Notes under the pieces: generated by a model | Seen by the model: only the letters and a program-made list of their open reading frames with translations | Told to the model about the DNA's origin: nothing | Database searches by the model: none | Translations under genes and position numbers: made by a program | Shown here: positions 518 to 8,289 of the stretch, one piece after another | How the letters are laid out: every line of letters starts with the position of its first letter | Numbering within the stretch: position 1 is the first letter of the stretch | Virus record (IMG/VR): IMGVR_UViG_3300014922_000029 | Strand: one strand, 5' to 3' | Source: a virus | Lineage: Duplodnaviria > Heunggongvirae > Uroviricota > Caudoviricetes | Length of the DNA: 9,552 nt

Positions 518-1057
518 TTATCTGTCGATTCCCCAGCACACCAGCGCGCTCTCCTGGTCACGACGGAATACCTGACCGTAGCAGTTATTTGAGCGAATAC
601 GGCAGTCTCTGCCACCGTCCTTAATCCACCAGCGAATCGCCTCACATGCTCCANNNNNNNNNNNNNNNNNNNNNNNNNNNNNNNNNNNNNNNNNNNNNNN
701 NNNNNNNNNNNNNNNNNNNNNNNNNNNNNNNNNNNNNNNNNNNNNNNNNNNNNNNNNNNNNNNNNTCAGCGGCACTCTGATGTTTTTCTCCACCCACGCC
801 AGCGCTTTATCACGCTCAATGGCGTTAACCCGGTCGCATTTTCCCTTCGACAGCTTCATGCCAGGAATAACAGGCTTACCATCCACCCGGGTGGCTCCAC
901 GGCAGATGGTCCAGATCCCCGCACCATCACGGTATGCCATGGTGTGGTTACCTTCTTTTTCGTCAAGAAACTGGTCGAGGATTTCAGGCGCAGACGCCCC
1001 TGCACCAATCAGCGCCAGAACGGCAGCCGACAGGCCGTATCTGATTTTTGCGTTCAT
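518..1057 (-). CDS. R: Phage endolysin, T4-lysozyme-like muramidase with N-terminal SAR (signal-anchor-release) domain; resembles the Qin prophage lysozyme RrrQ/YdfQ
   Basis: 179-aa ORF with ATG at 1057. N-terminus MNAKIRYGLSAAVLALIGAGASAP is a Gly/Ala-rich weakly hydrophobic SAR-type segment, followed by the lysozyme core (EGNHTMAYRDGAGIWTICRGAT). It lies directly after a pinholin. The ORF spans the N run 654-765 in frame, so the central part is unknown. Confidence 0.8.
   Translation of the reverse strand: MNAKIRYGLSAAVLALIGAGASAPEILDQFLDEKEGNHTMAYRDGAGIWTICRGATRVDGKPVIPGMKLSKGKCDRVNAIERDKALAWVEKNIRVPLXXXXXXXXXXXXXXXXXXXXXXXXXXXXXXXXXXXXXXGACEAIRWWIKDGGRDCRIRSNNCYGQVFRRDQESALVCWGIDR
654..765. 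other. Run of 112 N (assembly gap or masked sequence) inside the endolysin gene
   Basis: Literal n characters in the sequence. Confidence 1.
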
Positions 1058-2416: not shown

Positions 2417-4405
2417 TTATGATGATGCCCGGCTTTCGTTAACTTTGACTGTGACCGTATCAAGCAGTACAGGATACGTCGCTTTTGCCCCCGTGATATC
2501 TGTCAGCGTCAGCGTATCTGCTGTAAAGCCATCATTTGTCCACATCACAAGGTCAAACGCCGTCTGCTCTGTACCATCAATCACCGGAACGACTCTTTCG
2601 CTGTTATTTCCCGCAAAGCGGAAAACAACCGTATGCCAGTTATGGTCAAACGCACCAAATGTACCCAGTTGTGCATTCGACGTGCCCTTGTGGTGCATAA
2701 GATTCAGATTTGATGCATCCGTCTGAAGGAAGAATGATGCCAGCATACTGTTTGCTGCCGCGCCTGACGCCCACTGCGACACCGGCCAGTAGAGACCAAA
2801 GACAAACTGTCCGTTCACCAGTTCGCTTCCATCCGGAATTTTGAACCGTACGGCAATTTCACCCCCCTTGCTGAGAAGATTTTTTGCCTCCTCCACTGCA
2901 ACAGTACAGAACATTTTCCAGGACGTCAGTTTACCGGGCTGTTTTTCCAGTCGCAGCGCTTTCCGTCCACCGTCATCAGTCACAGTGCCTTTGCCACCGG
3001 CAGCCCCCCACTGCTGCTCTGTCCATACACCATTTCCACTGTTCGCATCATATTCAGCCACCGTCCTGGTACTGCTCACGGCCTCATCATGACCAGTACC
3101 AGCAACACCGCCATCCTGCGGTTTCTCAACACCCGGTACCCCCGGACTGACATCATCACCGGGAGTTGTACCACCCGACTGCGGTGCGCTCTGCCCGGTA
3201 AGGAACGATAATGTCCGCCCGGCGTACTGCAAAATGGCACCTGCCAGGCGGTCTGAAACAATGCCTCTTCGCGCCCATGAACTGAAGTGCGTTTTACGAT
3301 CGGCTGACGTCCAGTTACTGGCAGTGCGTGACGCAGCGCCATAGTATCCCGCCGGGATAATGTCCGGATCTTCTGACGGCTCGTTTGTCGGCACATTCAC
3401 ACCATGCTCATCCGTCATCAACGGCACAAAGTGAATATTCTGCGCAGCTTTGCCTTTATACCCACCGTAAACCGCCTCATACGGCGCTGCATACCTTTCC
3501 TTCCAGTAGTACGTGGTATCACCGCAAATCCACGGGACGCTGGCCGTTGTCCCGCCAGTACACTGCTCTGCCACATCTGCCAGTTCCGTACGGAACTGAT
3601 TTACCATGGCAAGGAAAAGCGCATTGTGTTCTGCATGTCTCCCCGAACTGACATCTTTTTCTCCCTGCATCCAAATCACTGATAACAGCACGTTCTTCGG
3701 ATTTTTCTTCAGGGCCGCACGGGTTCTGCTGACCAGGTCATAATACAGCGGTTTATCCGCCCCCCACAGGGACGAGCCTGCGGTCGCTCCCGACGCTGCG
3801 TTAAACGCCCCCTCGGCCCCCGCAGTAAATCCCGAATCGCCACGGCCACATGGAACAAGAAGGATACCCGCATTCGCAGGCATAAACGGCAGCAGCTTTT
3901 TGGCAACATGCAGAGCATGCCCCACACAACCGTACTGCCCTTTATTAAGGTCCGCTTCAGGATGATTCAGGTTACTCATATCCTGCACATCATGCAGACA
4001 GTGGTCTGCCGGAATGATGTCGTTATATTTACAGGCGGCACCACCCGGCGTCACCGTACTGCGACGCGCCAGCTGTTTAATACGCGGGTCCGGACGGTCA
4101 TATGTCTCCGGCAGCGGCAGCCCTTCCCCAAAAGACATTGAGTTTGACTGCCCCGCCAGAACAACAACAAAGTAATACTCCGGTTCGCTGGTGGTGCTGA
4201 TAACTGTGCCTTCTCCATCCGACGGCTTCACCACCACAGGTGTGGTGACATCACCTTCCGCCGCAATGGCCTGCATCAGGGTATAAGGCGTGATGGCGAC
4301 AGGGCTGCCAAATGGCTGCCACCCCTCCTTCAGTTTTTGTGTCAGTCGCTCCGCAAGGTCTGACGGCGACGCCGCCCTGACCACATCGTAGTGTTTAAAT
4401 GTCAT
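2417..4405 (-). CDS. nanS-p: Prophage-encoded sialate O-acetylesterase of the NanS-p type (N-terminal DUF1737-like region, SGNH/SASA esterase core, C-terminal probable carbohydrate-binding region)
   Basis: 662-aa ORF. N-terminus MTFKHYDVVRAASPSDLAERLTQKLKEGWQPFG and the esterase motif VVLAGQSNSMSFG match the NanS-p family found between stx and the lysis genes in Stx phages. Size and position between the moron locus and the lysis cassette fit. Confidence 0.85.
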   Translation of the reverse strand: MTFKHYDVVRAASPSDLAERLTQKLKEGWQPFGSPVAITPYTLMQAIAAEGDVTTPVVVKPSDGEGTVISTTSEPEYYFVVVLAGQSNSMSFGEGLPLPETYDRPDPRIKQLARRSTVTPGGAACKYNDIIPADHCLHDVQDMSNLNHPEADLNKGQYGCVGHALHVAKKLLPFMPANAGILLVPCGRGDSGFTAGAEGAFNAASGATAGSSLWGADKPLYYDLVSRTRAALKKNPKNVLLSVIWMQGEKDVSSGRHAEHNALFLAMVNQFRTELADVAEQCTGGTTASVPWICGDTTYYWKERYAAPYEAVYGGYKGKAAQNIHFVPLMTDEHGVNVPTNEPSEDPDIIPAGYYGAASRTASNWTSADRKTHFSSWARRGIVSDRLAGAILQYAGRTLSFLTGQSAPQSGGTTPGDDVSPGVPGVEKPQDGGVAGTGHDEAVSSTRTVAEYDANSGNGVWTEQQWGAAGGKGTVTDDGGRKALRLEKQPGKLTSWKMFCTVAVEEAKNLLSKGGEIAVRFKIPDGSELVNGQFVFGLYWPVSQWASGAAANSMLASFFLQTDASNLNLMHHKGTSNAQLGTFGAFDHNWHTVVFRFAGNNSERVVPVIDGTEQTAFDLVMWTNDGFTADTLTLTDITGAKATYPVLLDTVTVKVNESRASS

Positions 4406-4502
4406 GAATCCTCCCGGTCGGGATAATGTTGTGAGTCAGATGAGGGGCGGGCTGAAGTCCGGAAGTTACAGGACAATGGCAGGAGGAAGACTACAGCCCG
4501 CA

Positions 4503-4533
4503 ATACGAAAAAGGCCGCGCAGTTGCGCAGCCT
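4503..4533 (-). terminator. Intrinsic terminator (minus strand) between the lipoprotein moron and nanS-p
   Basis: Minus-strand RNA aggcugcgc-aacu-gcgcggccu forms a 9-bp stem including one U-G pair, followed by uuuuucguauu. Confidence 0.65.
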
Positions 4534-4586
4534 TATGAATTCTGGTTAAAATCCATTCGATTATAAAAATGTATATCTCATGCTGT

Positions 4587-4616
4587 NNNNNNNNNNNNNN
4601 NNNNNNNNNNNNNNNN
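4587..4616. other. Run of 30 N (gap or masked sequence) in the non-coding stretch
   Basis: Literal n characters in the sequence. Confidence 1.
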
Positions 4617-4885
4617 AGAAAGCCCCTCCGGAGAGGGGCTGGAGAGTGGCGCTATGTGCCATTGCATGGTGCCGGGTGCCTCCCGGTGAGTTCAGCCCGG
4701 TGACACTAAACCCGCATATTCTCGCTTACGATCATCAAAGAGATCATACCGTTCACCAGTCGCCCCTCCGCACAGGGGGATTCACCATGCGAAATTTTTT
4801 TAACAAATGCTCAGTCTGACAGGCAACTGTCAACTTACTGAATTGTGAGGAATTTAACACTTCACAGCACAATATCTTTCCAGCG

Positions 4886-4927
4886 CCCCAAAATCATCAG
4901 GACAGGAGAAAATCTTCTCCCCCTGTC
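4886..4927 (-). terminator. Possible terminator hairpin overlapping the lipoprotein stop codon
   Basis: gacaggagaa (4901-4910) pairs with ttctcc(ccc)tgtc (4915-4927) around loop aatc, with a 3-nt bulge. On the minus strand it is followed by an interrupted T-run (cugaugauuuugg). Weak. Confidence 0.3.
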
Positions 4928-5354
4928 AGAGTTTAAAATCCAGCACGCCATTTCTAAATGCTTTATATACTCCTGAAGACGGTGGTGATGGTATATCAGC
5001 ATTCTTTACTGCATTCATCGCTTCACGACATAAATCGGGATCACCGCTTTCTCTTTTAACCTGTAGCAGAAGACCATTCGGGGCCATATACATTCTCAGT
5101 GAACACTCTTTTCCTGAATACTTACTCGCATCCTTTAACTGTTCTTCTATGGCTTTCCTGACCTGAATGGCATACTGCCTGATTTCTTCACTGGCATCAG
5201 GGGTACGTTCCGATGAGCTCAAATTTTGCGACTTTATTAATTTATCTGAGTGATACAGAGAAGCATCATAATTATTTGTCGATACATCTTTTGTGCAGCC
5301 AGTTGTCAGACTGGCTAATATCAAAACAAGAACTGGTACAGCACGGCAATACAT
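4926..5354 (-). CDS. Lipoprotein with a TolA C-terminal (domain III)-like domain; predicted Lol-sorted outer-membrane lipoprotein
   Basis: 142-aa ORF; ATG at 5354 with GGAG Shine-Dalgarno about 9 nt upstream. Signal peptide MYCRAVPVLVLILASLTTGC with lipobox L-T-T-G-C and no Asp at +2. The C-terminal 85 residues (IRQYAIQVRKAIEEQLKDASKYSGKECSLRMYMAPNGLLLQVKRESGDPDLCREAMNAVKNADIPSPPSSGVYKAFRNGVLDFKL) align along their length with E. coli TolA domain III as I recall it (...YAGQIKSAIESKFYDASSYAGKTCTLRIKLAPDGMLLDIKPEGGDPALCQAALAAAKLAKIPKPPSQAVYEVFKNAPLDFKP). The gene and its upstream region are AT-rich relative to neighbours. Confidence 0.75.
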   Translation of the reverse strand: MYCRAVPVLVLILASLTTGCTKDVSTNNYDASLYHSDKLIKSQNLSSSERTPDASEEIRQYAIQVRKAIEEQLKDASKYSGKECSLRMYMAPNGLLLQVKRESGDPDLCREAMNAVKNADIPSPPSSGVYKAFRNGVLDFKL

Positions 5355-5632: not shown

Positions 5633-5709
5633 TGGACCGCCATCGAGGACTCGAACCCCGCGCAGCCAGCTTCGAAGGCTGGCGCTCTATCCCGATGAGC
5701 TAATGGCGG
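5633..5709 (-). tRNA. tRNA-Arg, anticodon UCG (reads CGA/CGG)
   Basis: Reverse complement folds as a cloverleaf by hand: acceptor ccgccat/atggcgg, D stem gctc/gagc, anticodon stem ccagc/gctgg with loop cuUCGaa, T arm cgggg-ttcgagt-cctcg, discriminator U, encoded CCA. Unusual C1:G72 first pair. Confidence 0.8.
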
Positions 5710-5718
5710 TATGTGATA

Positions 5719-5794
5719 TGGTGGCCCTTGCTGGATTTGAACCAGCGACCTGGCGATTATGAGTCGCTCGCTCTCACCACTGAGCTAAAGGGCC
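5719..5794 (-). tRNA. tRNA-Ile2 type (anticodon CAU, lysidine-modified in vivo; formally could be tRNA-Met)
   Basis: Reverse complement ggccctttagctcagtggtgagagcgagcgactCATaatcgccaggtcgctggttcaaatccagcaagggccacca folds as a canonical cloverleaf and is near-identical in layout to E. coli ileX-type tRNA as I remember it; encoded CCA. Stx-type phages carry an ileZ-arg tRNA cluster at this position. Confidence 0.85.
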
Positions 5795-5834: not shown

Positions 5835-6893
5835 TCATCCGTTCTGACTGACTAAATTCTGAACTTCCCTGACCGTCTGCTCAAAACGCTCAGTCTCCAG
5901 CTCAACGCCAGTTGCACGACGTCCCAGCGCTATCGCTGCTTTGACTGTCGAACCTGACCCCATGAAGAAATCTGCAACCAGGTCACCCGGACGACTGCTC
6001 GCGCTGATTATCTGCTGCAGCATTTCTGCCGGTTTTTCGCACGGATGTTTCCCGGGATAGTACTGCACCGGTTTATGCGTCCACACATCGGTGTACGGCA
6101 CCTGCACCGTCACACCAAAATACCGCCGCAGATGCTTATATTCACTCTGCAGTTCCGTATACTGCCGGTTCAGTTCACTGTATGTGCTGACCAGTTGGTG
6201 ATGTGGCTTTTCCAGTTCTCCGCGCTGATGCTTATCTTCTGCCACCCGGGCAAACAGCGCCTGTAATTTCAGATAATCGCTTTCGTCCGGTAGCTGCCAC
6301 TGGCTGGCACTGAACCAGTGCGACACCATGTTTTTCTTTCCTGTGGCATCAGCAATCTGTTTTGCCGTTATCCCCAGGGCAGCACGCGCATCACGAAAGT
6401 AAGAAATCAGCGGGGCCATCACATGCTGTTTCAGTGCCCTGCCCTTCGCCTCATACCCGGCATCTTTCGGGCGATACGGCCCCTGATAATGTTCCGCGAA
6501 CAGAATGCGCTCTGTGGCGGGGAAATATGCCCTCAGGCTTTCCTTGTTGCACCCGTTCCAGCGTCCGGACGGCTTCGCCCAGATAATATGGTTCAGCACA
6601 TTGAAGCGTTCACGCATCATGATTTCAATGTCAGACGCCAGGCGATGGCCACAGAACAGGTAAAGACTTCCGGCAGGTTTCAGCACCCGCCAGAACTGCG
6701 CAAGACACTGGTCCAGCCACTTCAGGTAATCATCGTCGCCCTTCCACTGGTTATCCCAGCCCTCAGGCTTCACTTTAAAGTACGGCGGGTCCGTGACTAT
6801 CAGGTCAACAGAATTTTCGGGTAACGACCGGATAAATTCCAGGCAGTCGGCGTTGATTAACTCACAACTGGATATTTTTACAGTACTAAGCAT
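5835..6893 (-). CDS. DNA methyltransferase, beta-class amino-methyltransferase (DPPY catalytic motif near the N-terminus, FxGxG SAM-binding motif near the C-terminus); most likely N6-adenine
   Basis: 352-aa ORF with VTDPPYF at residues about 33-39 and DFFMGSGST near residue 310; this motif order defines the beta group. No restriction endonuclease gene nearby, so an orphan methyltransferase. Shine-Dalgarno at the ATG (6893) is weak. Confidence 0.85.
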   Translation of the reverse strand: MLSTVKISSCELINADCLEFIRSLPENSVDLIVTDPPYFKVKPEGWDNQWKGDDDYLKWLDQCLAQFWRVLKPAGSLYLFCGHRLASDIEIMMRERFNVLNHIIWAKPSGRWNGCNKESLRAYFPATERILFAEHYQGPYRPKDAGYEAKGRALKQHVMAPLISYFRDARAALGITAKQIADATGKKNMVSHWFSASQWQLPDESDYLKLQALFARVAEDKHQRGELEKPHHQLVSTYSELNRQYTELQSEYKHLRRYFGVTVQVPYTDVWTHKPVQYYPGKHPCEKPAEMLQQIISASSRPGDLVADFFMGSGSTVKAAIALGRRATGVELETERFEQTVREVQNLVSQNG

Positions 6894-7027
6894 GGATCAT
6901 TAAGCCTGTCTCTGATAGGCTCATTCTGCTTTTGCGCAAAGCAGTGGGCCTGAGGTTTGCTTGTGATCCGGACGCATGAGCAGATGGCTGGTGAGTGCCC
7001 CTAACACCCACCAGCCGCCCATTTACC

Positions 7028-7057
7028 ACAAATAAAAAAGCCTTCAGGACTGAAGGC
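7028..7057 (-). terminator. Intrinsic terminator (minus strand) overlapping the 3' end of the small ORF, upstream of the methyltransferase
   Basis: gccttca (7040-7046) pairs with tgaaggc (7051-7057) around loop ggac. The minus-strand RNA hairpin is followed by uuuuuuauuu (complement of 7028-7039). Confidence 0.55.
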
Positions 7058-7241
7058 GTCTGTAACAACCGAACTGATAGTCTGCCAGCCCCGCCATAAC
7101 AAGCTGGGTCAGTATTAACTGGCAGCGTTCACGTGAAAGGTAAGTATTCTGCGCAATCTCCCCGACTGTCGCCGGTTCGGTGGCACTTAATTCATTAAAC
7201 ACCACTCTGGCGGTTTCGGTCATATCCTGCTGTTTCAGCAT
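7044..7241 (-). CDS. Hypothetical 65-aa protein, possibly winged-helix-like, located in the late-operon leader between two terminators
   Basis: ATG at 7241 with good Shine-Dalgarno (aagggaaaaagacATG). Sequence MLKQQDMTETARVVFNELSATEPATVGEIAQNTYLSRERCQLILTQLVMAGLADYQFGCYRRLQS. The longer track ORF from 7328 begins at a GTG without a Shine-Dalgarno. Fold assignment is a guess from the helix-turn pattern. Confidence 0.45.
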   Translation of the reverse strand: MLKQQDMTETARVVFNELSATEPATVGEIAQNTYLSRERCQLILTQLVMAGLADYQFGCYRRLQS

Positions 7242-7363
7242 GTCTTTTTCCCTTTTCCGGTTAACGTGACACACCAATAACTCTTGTCGAAAAAGCCAGC
7301 AAGCTGAAAGACAGGTATTCACCGCCACCAGCGCGTTTACTGTACTGACGCGATTTCAGTCAT

Positions 7364-7385
7364 AAAAAACCCGCCAGGCGGCGGG
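7364..7385 (-). terminator. tR'-like intrinsic terminator about 65 nt downstream of the late promoter
   Basis: cccgcc (7370-7375) pairs with ggcggg (7380-7385) around loop aggc. The minus-strand RNA hairpin is followed by uuuuuu (complement of 7364-7369). Confidence 0.7.
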
Positions 7386-7417
7386 GTGTAAAAAATCTTC
7401 TAACGTCAGGCATAAAA

Positions 7418-7462
7418 CGCCCATCATTAGGGCAAATTTACCACAGATTCGGGAAAAATCAA
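7418..7462 (-). promoter_or_regulatory. Late promoter pR' with qut-like pause element (the Q engagement site)
   Basis: Minus-strand sequence just 3' of the Q stop: TTGATT (-35, 7462..7457), 16-bp spacer, TAAATT (-10, 7440..7435), then tgccctAATGATGGGCG. Lambda pR' has -10 TAAATT followed by tgactcaACGATGGGTT (from memory); the -10 hexamer and the downstream GATGGG core are shared. Predicted start near 7427. Confidence 0.6.
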
Positions 7463-7467
7463 CAAAG

Positions 7468-8289
7468 CTATCTGGTCACCTTTTTCAGTTGTTGTTCTGC
7501 CCATGCTTCTTCAATATCAAACTGCACCACCAGCGTATCGTAAAAACGTTTAACTGTTTTTTTCCATGTATCAAGAGATATGGCATCGGTTACATTACAT
7601 ATGGCATTAAATGCCTCCGTTGAAGGTAATCTTTCATAGCCACGCCCACCACAACGCTGACAGTTTCTGAAAACCGGCACACCCTGTTTTTCCGACTCTT
7701 CACGATGAATGGCAACACCGCGCCCACGACAATCTTTACAGGCAGTGGATACCTCTCCCTTCCCTCCACACTCCGGACAGGCAACTTTTACCACCTCCCT
7801 GACTTTTTTCCATTCCTCCCAGTAAGACGGATACACGCCTTTTGTGCACTTTGCCCACACTGGCGGCTTACCATCCGGATACTGGATCTTGTTTGTAAAA
7901 ACCTCGCTTTCAATAAATTTTTTTCCGTGACAGCAGGGGCACTGTTTTTTGCTCGCCGCGCTACGGGCATAATCTTCAAACGCATACGAAGCCATAATAC
8001 GCATCACTGCCGGTTTTATTTCTGCCGGGAGTTTTCTTAACGCCGCCACGCGATCACACCGACTGAGTGCATATTCTGTCAGCAATTCTGTTGCCCGCTC
8101 TCTGTCATTCATACTAATGCCCATTTTCCCAAGGAACGCAGAAAACCCCATCTCAGCCCGATTCTGTGTCATGCCCTGCGCGGCCATCACATCAGTGATA
8201 CTCAGCGCATCTTTCGACGTTGAGGCCGATGCATCAGTCAGGCCGGGGGATTTTGGGGAGTAGTATTTCGGTAAATCTTCCAGTTTCAT
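7468..8289 (-). CDS. Q: Late-gene antitermination protein Q (larger Q type with several CxxC zinc-binding motifs, QuuQ-like)
   Basis: 273-aa ORF. N-terminal MKLEDLPKYYSPKSP...ITDVMAAQGM resembles prophage Q antiterminators as I recall them. CxxC pairs CPCCHG, CPECGG, CKDCRG, CQRCGG. Sits immediately upstream of the pR'/qut-like promoter and tR'. Start overlaps the rusA stop (ATGA). Confidence 0.8.
   Translation of the reverse strand: MKLEDLPKYYSPKSPGLTDASASTSKDALSITDVMAAQGMTQNRAEMGFSAFLGKMGISMNDRERATELLTEYALSRCDRVAALRKLPAEIKPAVMRIMASYAFEDYARSAASKKQCPCCHGKKFIESEVFTNKIQYPDGKPPVWAKCTKGVYPSYWEEWKKVREVVKVACPECGGKGEVSTACKDCRGRGVAIHREESEKQGVPVFRNCQRCGGRGYERLPSTEAFNAICNVTDAISLDTWKKTVKRFYDTLVVQFDIEEAWAEQQLKKVTR

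What the first reader, a model, noticed from the sequence alone, without database searches (positions are those of the whole stretch)
4406..4925. 520-bp structured non-coding stretch between the moron and nanS-p
No credible ORF on either strand. It contains a strong minus-strand terminator (4503-4533), a perfect TATAAT on the minus strand about 30 nt upstream of that terminator (complement of about 4557-4562; its -35 would fall in the N run), two GC hairpins of the form cccct-N-agggg (4620-4637 and about 4766-4781), and CCGGTGA-like direct repeats (about 4672-4703). A promoter followed shortly by a terminator mirrors the pR'/tR' layout and could be a second antitermination checkpoint or a small-RNA gene ahead of nanS-p. 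It could also be a decayed gene.
Basis: seen in the sequence. Interest (0 to 1): 0.45.

Follow-up and report, generated by a model that had tools for sequence, protein, structure and literature searches.

The report
Known prophage pair of small RNAs
The 520-bp "non-coding" stretch is the already described pair of convergent small regulatory RNA genes (an STnc100/EcOnc27-type sRNA and an AsxR-type "anti-sRNA") that lambdoid prophages carry between their moron gene and nanS-p, so it is real and functional-looking but ordinary.

Summary
Rfam places a full-length STnc100 sRNA (RF02076, 167.7 bits, E 1e-38) on the minus strand at 4819-4610. The "CCGGTGA repeats" are the arms and loop of two adjacent helices.

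The 30-N run hides the terminator of a second, plus-strand gene. In E. coli EC2, identical over all visible bases, this position holds an AsxR-family anti-sRNA (RF02703, 63.0 bits, exactly the gathering score) starting at window 4558. It has no -35 and is not conserved.

The minus-strand terminator (4534-4504) is real and nearly invariant. It overlaps the anti-sRNA promoter, and a conserved hairpin in the nanS-p leader follows it.

The block from about 4868 to the nanS-p start is homologous to the stx2B-nanS-p spacer of Sakai Sp5. There the same convergent pair (EcOnc27 and AsxR) was shown to bind Hfq (Tree et al. 2014).

The only new point is that the anti-sRNA here is an unnamed 5' allele. 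It lacks AsxR's pairing to FnrS, and its target is unknown.

The parts
4869..4925 (-). Moron-specific 3' flank with a small hairpin (GGAGAA-gatt-TTCTCC, 4905-4920). It is not part of the conserved cassette.
   Evidence: Read directly from the sequence. In 35 distinct cassettes the sequence upstream of the conserved block differs entirely and often ends in its own terminator.
4820..4868 (-). Conserved 5' extension of the STnc100-type gene. It holds a candidate extended -10 (TGTTAAATT, 4859-4851), the invariant TCACAATTCAG (4848-4838), and the palindrome TTGACAG-TTGC-CTGTCAG. The probable 5' end of the RNA is near 4844 (inferred).
   Evidence: Conservation starts here across unrelated upstream contexts. 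T and A of TGnTA are invariant. A start near 4844 gives an RNA of about 225-230 nt, against published Northern sizes of about 222 and 235/247 nt for Sakai homologues. The consensus promoter scan does not call it.
4610..4819 (-). STnc100-family (EcOnc27 / sRNA103 type) Hfq-class sRNA. Closing helix 4790-4783 with 4671-4664. Stem-loop 4713-4706 with 4695-4688.
   Evidence: Rfam RF02076 at 167.7 bits (gathering score 47), E 1e-38, model positions 1-206 of 206; 179.1 bits in unmasked EC2. In 18 distinct homologues 99.6% of cells are paired, against 35-51% in slid controls, and 4 pairs show compensatory changes. Fold z-score -3.75.
4587..4616 (.). Run of 30 N. In the closest genome it corresponds to 35 nt (plus strand TGCCCGAACCCACTCGGGCTTTTTTTTTGCCCACA). 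That stretch is the terminator hairpin and T9 tract of the anti-sRNA, plus the last bases of the STnc100 terminator tail.
   Evidence: EC2 is 100% identical over the visible bases of 4380-4960, and all 18 hits listed at 99% identity or more span 586 nt against the query's 581. The length mismatch (30 against 35) is unexplained.
4558..4616 (+). AsxR/AgvB-family anti-sRNA gene of about 57 nt, convergent with STnc100. Visible part 4558-4586 (CGAUUAUAAAAAUGUAUAUCUCAUGCUGU). The 3' terminator is masked. This is an unnamed 5' allele.
   Evidence: In EC2, RF02703 AsxR scores 63.0 bits (gathering score 63), E 2.5e-08, model 1-53 of 53; AgvB scores 43.4, below its gathering score of 56. It is not detectable in the masked window even at E<=5. 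The 5' end is set by homology to the RACE-mapped AsxR of Sakai. The allele occurs in 33 of the 95 matches, and is the commonest exact variant. About 180 of 5426 complete E. coli genomes carry it, unannotated in the 12 rows listed.
4523..4552 (+). Inferred promoter of the anti-sRNA: -35 TTGCGC (4523-4528), 18-nt spacer, -10 TAAAAT (4547-4552). The -35 lies inside the opposite-strand terminator hairpin.
   Evidence: The -10 and flanking bases (GGTTAAAAT) are invariant in 35 distinct cassettes, and the position fits the mapped AsxR start. The scan does not call it because the -35 matches only 3 of 6.
4504..4534 (-). Strong intrinsic terminator (AAGGCUGCGC-AACU-GCGCGGCCUU + UUUUCG), downstream of the dyad and upstream of nanS-p.
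   Evidence: Scan result: 10 pairs, 7 of them G-C. It is nearly invariant among cassettes. Five sequences change G-C to G-U, which pairs only in the minus-strand RNA, and one has a break.
4447..4501 (-). Conserved long hairpin in the nanS-p 5' leader (GCGGGCUG-U-AGUC ... GACU-U-CAGCCCGC). Function unknown.
   Evidence: It appears in the minimum-energy and centroid folds; z-score -3.78 for 4396-4540. 98.6% of cells are paired, against 26-50% in slid controls for the terminator and hairpin together. One pair changes AU to GC, and six pairs vary on one side only, all keeping a standard pair. No Rfam match.
4403..4415 (-). nanS-p ribosome-binding site GGGAGG (4415-4410) and start codon (4405-4403).
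   Evidence: ORF 2417-4405 encodes 662 aa with DUF1737, SASA esterase and DUF6645 domains. Sequence read.

Best explanation
The stretch is the conserved "sRNA dyad" cassette of lambdoid prophages. It sits between the moron inserted downstream of the Q-dependent late promoter and nanS-p with the lysis genes.

Two genes face each other:
- On the late (minus) strand, a roughly 205-230-nt STnc100/EcOnc27-family sRNA ends at its own GC hairpin (4640-4621).
- On the plus strand, a roughly 57-nt AsxR/AgvB-family anti-sRNA starts at about 4558. In the closest genomes its terminator is GCCCGAACCCACUCGGGC followed by a U tract, and the N run hides it.

By homology with the Sakai Sp5 copies, both are made in the lysogen and bind Hfq. 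The long RNA base-pairs with mRNAs. The short RNA uses its variable 5' 14-18 nt to sponge a core-genome sRNA.

The allele here differs from AsxR at 6 positions and loses the pairing with the FnrS terminator loop. Its target is therefore probably another, unknown RNA.

Downstream lies a strong, nearly invariant minus-strand terminator (4534-4504), which overlaps the anti-sRNA promoter. It most likely stops Q-independent transcription (moron, STnc100 read-through) before nanS-p and the lysis genes, while Q-modified polymerase reads through it. A conserved leader hairpin (4501-4447) follows.

Shown here: family membership, structure conservation, homology and synteny.
Inferred: expression, Hfq dependence, promoter positions, the insulating role of the terminator, and the content of the N run.
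For: - Rfam: STnc100 at 167.7 bits, full length.
- In EC2, identical over all visible bases, STnc100 scores 179.1 bits and AsxR 63.0 bits on the opposite strand, with 3' ends 5 nt apart.
- Alignment with the Sakai Sp5 stx2B-ECs1207 spacer gives 88% mean column identity, from about 45 nt upstream of Rfam position 1 to the nanS-p start.
- Structures are kept across 18 distinct homologues: 99.6% and 99.0% of cells paired, against 26-51% in slid controls, with compensatory pairs.
- Neighbours confirm the late-region setting: Q antiterminator, DNA methylase, two tRNAs, moron, SASA esterase, holin.
- Literature. Convergent sRNAs lie between the moron CDS and the conserved ORF 3' of PR' in at least eight Sakai prophages. 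EcOnc27 is about 235/247 nt, and the 247-nt form is destabilised without Hfq. AsxR is 54 nt, has a RACE-mapped 5' end, and sponges FnrS (PMC4104026; review PMC7873438). STnc100 lies 75 nt downstream of stx2 (PMC12370729). STnc100 overlaps EcOnc27, which is sRNA103 in EDL933 (PMC12711010).
- Seed difference: pairing with the FnrS terminator loop is -5.0 kcal/mol for this allele and -8.5 for AsxR, and the U8>A change breaks the helix.
Against: - The anti-sRNA cannot be scored in the window itself because its 3' two-thirds are Ns. Its presence rests on EC2 (sequence read), on 17 further genomes at 99% identity or more with the same 586-nt span, and on 33 matches (EC2 plus viral contigs) with the same 5' half.
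- The N run is 30 nt and the homologous stretch is 35 nt.
- AsxR scores exactly at, not above, the gathering threshold.
- Neither inferred promoter is called by the consensus scan.
- The published EcOnc27 sizes (235/247 nt) would put its 5' end at the edge of the conserved block. The long RNA may therefore be processed from the upstream transcript rather than started at its own promoter.
- No expression data exist for this prophage.
- The sequences used for covariation are related, so the independent events are few.
Confidence: 0.88

Rival explanations
1. A minus-strand promoter (TATAAT at 4565-4560, with its -35 in the N run) drives a very short transcript that ends at the terminator 4534-4504. 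This would be a second pR'/tR'-like antitermination checkpoint, or a roughly 30-50-nt sRNA ahead of nanS-p.
For: A perfect TATAAT is present on the minus strand, and a strong terminator lies about 25-55 nt downstream.
Against: - In the unmasked homologue the -35 position reads CAACAG (0 of 6), there is no TG extension, and the scan calls no minus-strand promoter.
- The hexamer is specific to this allele. AsxR-type cassettes read AATAAT and EcOnc03-type cassettes read TTTTAT at the same place.
- The bases belong to a plus-strand gene whose own -10 (TAAAAT) is invariant and whose start was mapped by RACE in Sakai.
Confidence: 0.04
2. The long minus-strand RNA is not an independent gene. It is the structured 3' UTR of the moron mRNA or late transcript, released by RNase E processing, or acting only in cis to stabilise or terminate the upstream message.
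For: - No consensus promoter is found upstream.
- The published sizes of EcOnc27 (235/247 nt) place its 5' end only about 28-40 nt after the stx2B stop codon, at the edge of the conserved block.
- In this window the moron has no clear terminator of its own.
Against: - In several cassettes the upstream gene ends in a good terminator that abuts the conserved block directly (for example L004, where GCGGGC plus T8 runs into TTAAAT). The RNA there needs its own start.
- The TGnTA motif upstream is conserved.
- ChIP-exo in Salmonella LT2 is reported to show binding patterns of the sigma factors RpoD and RpoN at STnc100 promoter regions (PMC10794520).
- This rival concerns biogenesis only and is compatible with a trans-acting role.
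Confidence: 0.25
3. The region is a decayed protein-coding gene (pseudogene, or a remnant of stx or another moron).
For: Some phage records annotate short "hypothetical proteins" under the homologous region. ORFs of 43-79 aa exist.
Against: - About 4447-4868 is accounted for by RNA elements with pairing-preserving substitutions.
- Indels among homologues are of mixed length (1, 3, 4, 5, 8 and about 15-17 nt).
- Homology to the Stx2 phage begins after stx2B ends, not inside it.
- RefSeq annotates no CDS here in EC2 or Sakai.
Confidence: 0.02

Closest known systems
STnc100 (Rfam RF02076), which overlaps EcOnc27 of Sakai Sp5 (= sRNA103 of EDL933)
   Same: Full-length match far above threshold, with the same helices and terminator. 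Same position downstream of the moron or stx genes and upstream of nanS-p. Directly alignable with the Sp5 copy.
   Different: It follows a TolA-C-terminal-domain lipoprotein moron instead of stx2AB. The central variable segment (about 4760-4715) and the segment before the terminator differ from the Sp5 copy. Targets are unknown; published data cover only overexpression effects on fimZ and espA for the EDL933 copy.
AsxR (EcOnc02, Rfam RF02703), the anti-sRNA of Stx2 phage Sp5 that sponges FnrS
   Same: Same convergent position, same -10, same first 7 nt (CGAUUAU), and the same UAUCUCAUGC core. In EC2 the terminator hairpin is identical.
   Different: Six substitutions fall in nt 8-28 (U8A, C13U, A15U, G16A, AA27-28UG). 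Predicted pairing with the FnrS terminator loop drops from -8.5 to -5.0 kcal/mol, no better than shuffles. It is therefore an allele of the family, not AsxR in the strict sense. In this window the 3' part is masked.
AgvB (EcOnc01, RF02702) and EcOnc03
   Same: Same family design: a variable 5' 14-18 nt on a conserved 3' part of about 42 nt. Same dyad position.
   Different: It lacks AgvB's CACAACA GcvB-target motif and AgvB's terminator variant (CCCAUUCGGGCA), and scores 43.4 against a gathering score of 56. EcOnc03 carries a 5-nt-longer, unrelated 5' region.
PasD1/PasD2 of EPEC E2348/69 (Pearl Mizrahi 2021; Zhu, Shabalina & Storz 2026 preprint)
   Same: [quoted passage not shown] It is reported to be structurally related to STnc100.
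   Different: The PasD-type region of phage 2B8 scores only 38.3 bits on the STnc100 model (gathering score 47), has no AsxR-type partner, and lacks the second terminator and leader hairpin. The window RNA is STnc100 proper.
   Same: A minus-strand intrinsic terminator sits in the late operon, and Q-modified polymerase would have to read through it (inference).
   Different: There is no promoter immediately upstream, no Q-binding or pause context was tested or seen, and the upstream bases encode an opposite-strand sRNA.

Membership tests
STnc100 (RF02076) | Covariance-model score at or above the gathering score over the full model | tested here: met
   167.7 bits against a gathering score of 47, model positions 1-206 of 206, E 1e-38. 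179.1 bits in unmasked EC2.
STnc100 (RF02076) | Conserved multi-helix secondary structure kept by compensatory changes | tested here: met
   29 pairs in 5 helices. 99.6% of cells paired, against 35-51% when slid. 4 pairs with changes on both sides.
STnc100 (RF02076) | 3' Rho-independent terminator | tested here: met
   The stem 4640-4621 is visible and the tail starts UUUCU before running into the Ns. The full tail UUUCUUGUG is seen in EC2 and called by the scan. The U tract is poor.
STnc100 (RF02076) | Location in the late region of a lambdoid prophage, downstream of the moron or stx genes | tested here: met
   Order on the minus strand: Q, methylase, tRNAs, moron, sRNA, nanS-p, holin. Homologous to the Sp5 spacer.
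STnc100 (RF02076) | Expressed, Hfq-associated transcript | not testable with these tools
   Known only for homologues (PMC4104026; PMC5331693).
AsxR/AgvB anti-sRNA family (RF02703 / RF02702) | Covariance-model score at or above the gathering score | tested here: inconclusive
   There is no hit in the window even at E<=5, because 30 Ns cover the 3' part. In EC2, identical over the visible bases, AsxR scores 63.0 bits, equal to its gathering score of 63.
AsxR/AgvB anti-sRNA family (RF02703 / RF02702) | Conserved 3' region of about 42 nt (UAUCUCAUGC...GCCCGAACCCACUCGGGC plus U tract) behind a variable 5' 14-18 nt | tested here: inconclusive
   The visible part holds UAUCUCAUGCUGU (4574-4586) and the rest is masked. 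The same 5' half is followed by the exact terminator in all 33 matches (EC2 plus viral contigs), and about 150 E. coli records match the whole 87-nt gene at 99% identity or more.
AsxR/AgvB anti-sRNA family (RF02703 / RF02702) | Convergent with an STnc100-type sRNA between the moron and the conserved ORF 3' of PR' | tested here: met
   Opposite-strand genes whose 3' ends lie a few nt apart. The arrangement is as described in PMC4104026.
AsxR in the strict sense (FnrS sponge) | 5' end complementary to the loop of the FnrS terminator | tested here: not met
   AsxR nt 1-11 pair with UUUGAUGAGUCG of FnrS at -8.5 kcal/mol. This allele gives -5.0, and 39% of shuffles do as well. The U8>A change creates an A-G mismatch. 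The prediction is energy-based only.
AgvB (GcvB sponge) | CACAACA motif in the 5' variable region | tested here: not met
   The motif is absent from CGAUUAUAAAAAUGUAUAUC. AgvB model score is 43.4, below its gathering score of 56.
   No minus-strand promoter is called in the window or in EC2. The -35 equivalent is CAACAG. The TATAAT is not conserved.

The most novel reading that the evidence does not exclude
The plus-strand anti-sRNA here is a fourth, so far unnamed seed allele of the AsxR/AgvB/EcOnc03 family (5'-CGAUUAUAAAAAUGUAUAUC...). It is the commonest exact variant among 95 matches, nearly all in viral contigs. About 180 of 5426 complete E. coli genomes carry it, many of them non-STEC. 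It may sponge a core-genome sRNA other than FnrS or GcvB, which would rewire a different host regulon in strains such as urinary isolates. In addition, the invariant terminator and the conserved leader hairpin upstream of nanS-p may form an undescribed cis-control point for nanS-p and lysis-gene expression.
Probability: 0.4. Interest if true: 0.35.

Novelty: new member of a known kind. Interest (0 to 1): 0.2.

Why it matters
The result mainly corrects an annotation. A stretch that RefSeq leaves blank, and that some phage records fill with "hypothetical proteins", is a pair of known regulatory RNA genes. Standard Rfam scanning finds one of them at once, and finds the other only when the masked bases are restored.

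The dyad is one route by which prophages reprogram host sRNA networks. AgvB improves growth in bovine rectal mucus, AsxR de-represses haem use, and sequence variants in the STnc100/EcOnc27 region were recently linked to HUS risk.

An unnamed seed allele that is widespread outside Stx phages is therefore a reasonable target for interactome work. It would be an incremental step within an established framework.

Tried and rejected
1. The minus-strand TATAAT as a promoter. It has no -35, is not called by the scan and is not conserved.

2. The pseudogene reading. Conserved RNA structures explain the region, and homology to Sp5 starts after stx2B.

3. The idea that the anti-sRNA 5' region pairs with its own convergent partner. 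Cognate pairs do no better than shuffles: window allele with EC2 STnc100 -16.4 against a shuffle mean of -13.6 (fraction 0.15); AsxR with Sp5 -13.9 against -14.0.

4. Two scans of the one-genome-per-species collection, for the allele and for its visible 5' half plus promoter, both found nothing. The species range of the allele could therefore not be established. It is documented only in E. coli complete genomes and IMG/VR contigs.

5. A full-text search for the allele's sequence found no paper.

6. TTGACA at 4833-4828 as the -35 of STnc100. The sequence 17 nt downstream is GCATTT (1 of 6), and the predicted RNA lengths (about 175-180 nt) do not fit the published 222-247 nt. A downstream extended -10 (TGTTAAAAA, 4804-4796) remains a weaker alternative start.

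7. PasA/PasC between nanS-p and the holin gene. In EC2 that interval is annotated as coding (DUF1378 and DUF826), and Rfam finds nothing there.

8. Weak sub-threshold Rfam hits (Leu_leader, OmrA-B, SorY) at 4505-4583 are only terminator-hairpin matches.
Full report
**Setting.** All genes in the window run on the minus strand and form the late region of a lambdoid prophage:
- Q antiterminator, 7468-8289 (PF03589);
- DNA methylase, 5835-6893;
- two tRNAs, 5794-5719 and 5709-5633;
- a 142-aa moron, 4926-5354;
- the 520-bp stretch;
- nanS-p, 2417-4405 (DUF1737, SASA esterase, DUF6645);
- a DUF826 protein, holin and lysis genes.

E. coli EC2, a urinary isolate (NZ_CP058571.1), is 100% identical over every visible base of 4380-4960. 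RefSeq annotates nothing between its "tolA" moron and the esterase gene.

**Checking the observation.**
- The minus-strand terminator has its stem at 4534-4511 and a T tract to about 4504. It is the only terminator-like site the scan finds in the masked window.
- The hairpins are at 4621-4640 and 4763-4779.
- The three CCGG(G)TG(A) copies are at 4672-4703.
- ATTATA (TATAAT on the minus strand) is at 4560-4565.
- The N run is 4587-4616.

The promoter reading of the TATAAT does not hold up. The scan calls no promoter in the window and none on the minus strand in the unmasked homologue. The would-be -35 in EC2 reads CAACAG. The hexamer is absent from the other alleles of the same cassette.

**What the long element is.** An Rfam gathering-threshold scan gives a full-length STnc100 match (RF02076) at 4819-4610 on the minus strand. 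It scores 167.7 bits against a threshold of 47, E 1e-38 (repeated).

- The hairpin at about 4766-4781 is the first internal stem-loop (4778-4763).
- The hairpin at 4620-4637 is the terminator stem (4640-4621).
- The "direct repeats" are the arms and loop of two adjacent stem-loops (4713-4706 with 4695-4688, and 4686-4682 with 4676-4672). A closing helix, 4790-4783 with 4671-4664, encloses them.

I collected 93 IMG/VR contigs that carry the dyad, reduced them together with EC2 and Sakai Sp5 to 35 distinct cassettes, and counted pairs on 18 distinct sequences.
- 99.6% of cells form standard pairs, against 35-51% when the 3' partners are slid by 1-3 columns.
- Four pairs show changes on both sides.
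- The sequences are related, so this represents a handful of independent events. They agree with the Rfam model.
- The fold z-score is -3.75.

**What the N run hides.** In EC2 the 30 Ns correspond to 35 nt, on the plus strand TGCCCGAACCCACTCGGGCTTTTTTTTTGCCCACA.

With those bases present, Rfam also reports AsxR (RF02703) on the plus strand. It scores 63.0 bits, exactly the gathering score, over model positions 1-53 of 53. The match starts at the base equivalent to window 4558 and ends 5 nt from the 3' end of the STnc100 match. AgvB scores 43.4, below its threshold. In the masked window AsxR is undetectable even at E<=5.

The gene's -10 (TAAAAT, 4547-4552) is invariant in all 35 cassettes. A weak -35 (TTGCGC, 4523-4528) lies inside the opposite-strand terminator hairpin. 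The start position is set by homology with AsxR, whose 5' end was mapped by RLM-RACE (PMC4104026). The difference between 30 and 35 nt cannot be explained from the data. All 18 hits listed at 99% identity or more span 586 nt against the query's 581.

**Comparison with the literature.** The block from about 4868 to the nanS-p start aligns with the stx2B-ECs1207 spacer of Sakai prophage Sp5 at 88% mean column identity. Homology begins after stx2B.

Tree et al. [quoted passage not shown]
- In Sp5 the pair is EcOnc27 and EcOnc02/AsxR. EcOnc27 is about 235/247 nt, and the 247-nt form is destabilised in an hfq deletion. AsxR is 54 nt and sponges FnrS.
- The anti-sRNAs share about 42 conserved 3' nt and differ in a 14-18-nt 5' region.

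[quoted passage not shown] Later papers add the following:
- STnc100 partly overlaps EcOnc27, which is sRNA103 in EDL933.
- STnc100 lies 75 nt downstream of stx2.
- STnc100 is structurally related to PasD, which lies directly upstream of the esterase gene.

The PasD-type region of phage 2B8 scores only 38.3 bits on the STnc100 model and has no AsxR-type partner. The window RNA is therefore STnc100 proper. The kind of element, its position and its partner are all already known.

**What is specific to this copy.** The anti-sRNA 5' half here is CGAUUAUAAAAAUGUAUAUCUCAUGCUGU. It matches none of the four sequences printed by Tree et al., and a full-text sequence search found no paper containing it.
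- It is the commonest exact variant among the 95 matches (33 of them). The EcOnc03 and AsxR types split into sub-variants totalling 38 and 21.
- It occurs at 95% identity or more in about 181 of 5426 complete E. coli genomes, with no feature annotated under the match in the 12 rows listed.
- AsxR nt 1-11 can pair with the FnrS terminator loop and 3' stem (UUUGAUGAGUCG) at -8.5 kcal/mol. This allele carries U8>A in the middle of that helix and reaches only -5.0, which 39% of shuffles equal.
- It also lacks AgvB's CACAACA motif.

Its target, if it has one, is therefore probably different. I could not search the whole sRNA complement.

The dyad is mosaic: this allele is combined with several STnc100 variants. 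I found no sign that an anti-sRNA pairs with its own partner.

**The remaining 150 bp.** The terminator at 4534-4504 is nearly invariant. Its few substitutions are G-C to G-U, which pairs only in the minus-strand RNA, plus one break. This places its function on the late strand.

My reading is inference. The STnc100 terminator has a poor U tract (UUUCUUGUG), and the moron has no clear terminator of its own. The second terminator would then stop Q-independent transcription before nanS-p and the lysis genes, while Q-modified polymerase reads through.

- It is kept in all cassettes, with 98.6% of cells paired.
- One pair changes AU to GC, and six pairs vary on one side only, all keeping a standard pair.
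- It appears in the minimum-energy and centroid folds, with z-score -3.78 for 4396-4540.
- It has no Rfam match, and its role is unknown.

**The open question is biogenesis.** Conservation begins about 45 nt upstream of Rfam position 1, at TGTTAAATT...TCACAATTCAG (4859-4838).

Evidence for an own start:
- In some cassettes a good upstream terminator abuts this block.
- TGnTA fits an extended -10, and a start near 4844 would give about 225-230 nt. Published sizes are about 222 and 235/247 nt.

Evidence against:
- The scan does not call the promoter.
- The larger published sizes would put the 5' end at the edge of the block, so processing from the upstream transcript remains possible (rival confidence 0.25).

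**Verdict.** The element is a new instance of a known prophage sRNA dyad, with an unnamed seed allele in the short RNA. Interest is low.

Noticed in passing
window 4447-4501 (minus strand): A conserved 55-nt hairpin lies in the nanS-p 5' leader, directly after the second terminator. It is kept in 18 distinct cassettes, with wobble changes and one compensatory change that fit only the minus-strand RNA. It has no Rfam family and I found no description of it.
   Followed up: partly
window 4926-5354 (minus strand): The "moron" is a 142-aa predicted lipoprotein (lipobox LTTGC) with a TolA C-terminal domain (PF06519, 81.4 bits). RefSeq labels it "tolA" in EC2. It occupies the slot that stx2AB fills in Sp5. 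A role in exclusion or colicin and phage resistance is conceivable but was not examined.
   Followed up: partly
window 654-765: A second run of Ns (112 nt) lies near the lysis-gene end of the window. What it hides was not examined.
   Followed up: no
window 5633-5794 (minus strand): Two tRNA genes are present. ARAGORN calls them Met-CAT and Arg-TCG, and RefSeq annotates the first as tRNA-Ile (ileZ-like). Sakai Sp5 has a third one (argO, TCT) at the same place.
   Followed up: partly
window 4587-4616 and loci L003-L095: The T/A tract between the two convergent terminators varies from 6 to 9 nt among cassettes. The N run (30) is 5 nt shorter than the stretch it replaces in all the closest genomes (35).
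   Followed up: partly
window 4795-4806 (minus strand): The invariant A/U-rich stretch UUGUUAAAAAAA in the 5' part of STnc100 corresponds to the place where a 2025 machine-learning study put HUS-associated variants. Those were a SNP at +90 and a T deletion at +103 after stx2B, my mapping onto L002 6438 and 6451 (PMC12711010). It could be an Hfq site, a seed, or an alternative extended -10.
   Followed up: no
loci L001-L095 (alignment): The dyad is mosaic. The same anti-sRNA allele is joined to several different STnc100 central and 3' variants. One example is L015, with an EC2-like 5' half and an EcOnc03-type 3' half. This implies recombination breakpoints inside the sRNA gene.
   Followed up: partly
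window 6894-7467 (minus strand): The interval downstream of Q should hold pR', tR' and possibly an StxS-like short RNA. Rfam reports nothing there, and RefSeq annotates a 65-aa hypothetical protein in EC2. It was not examined.
   Followed up: no
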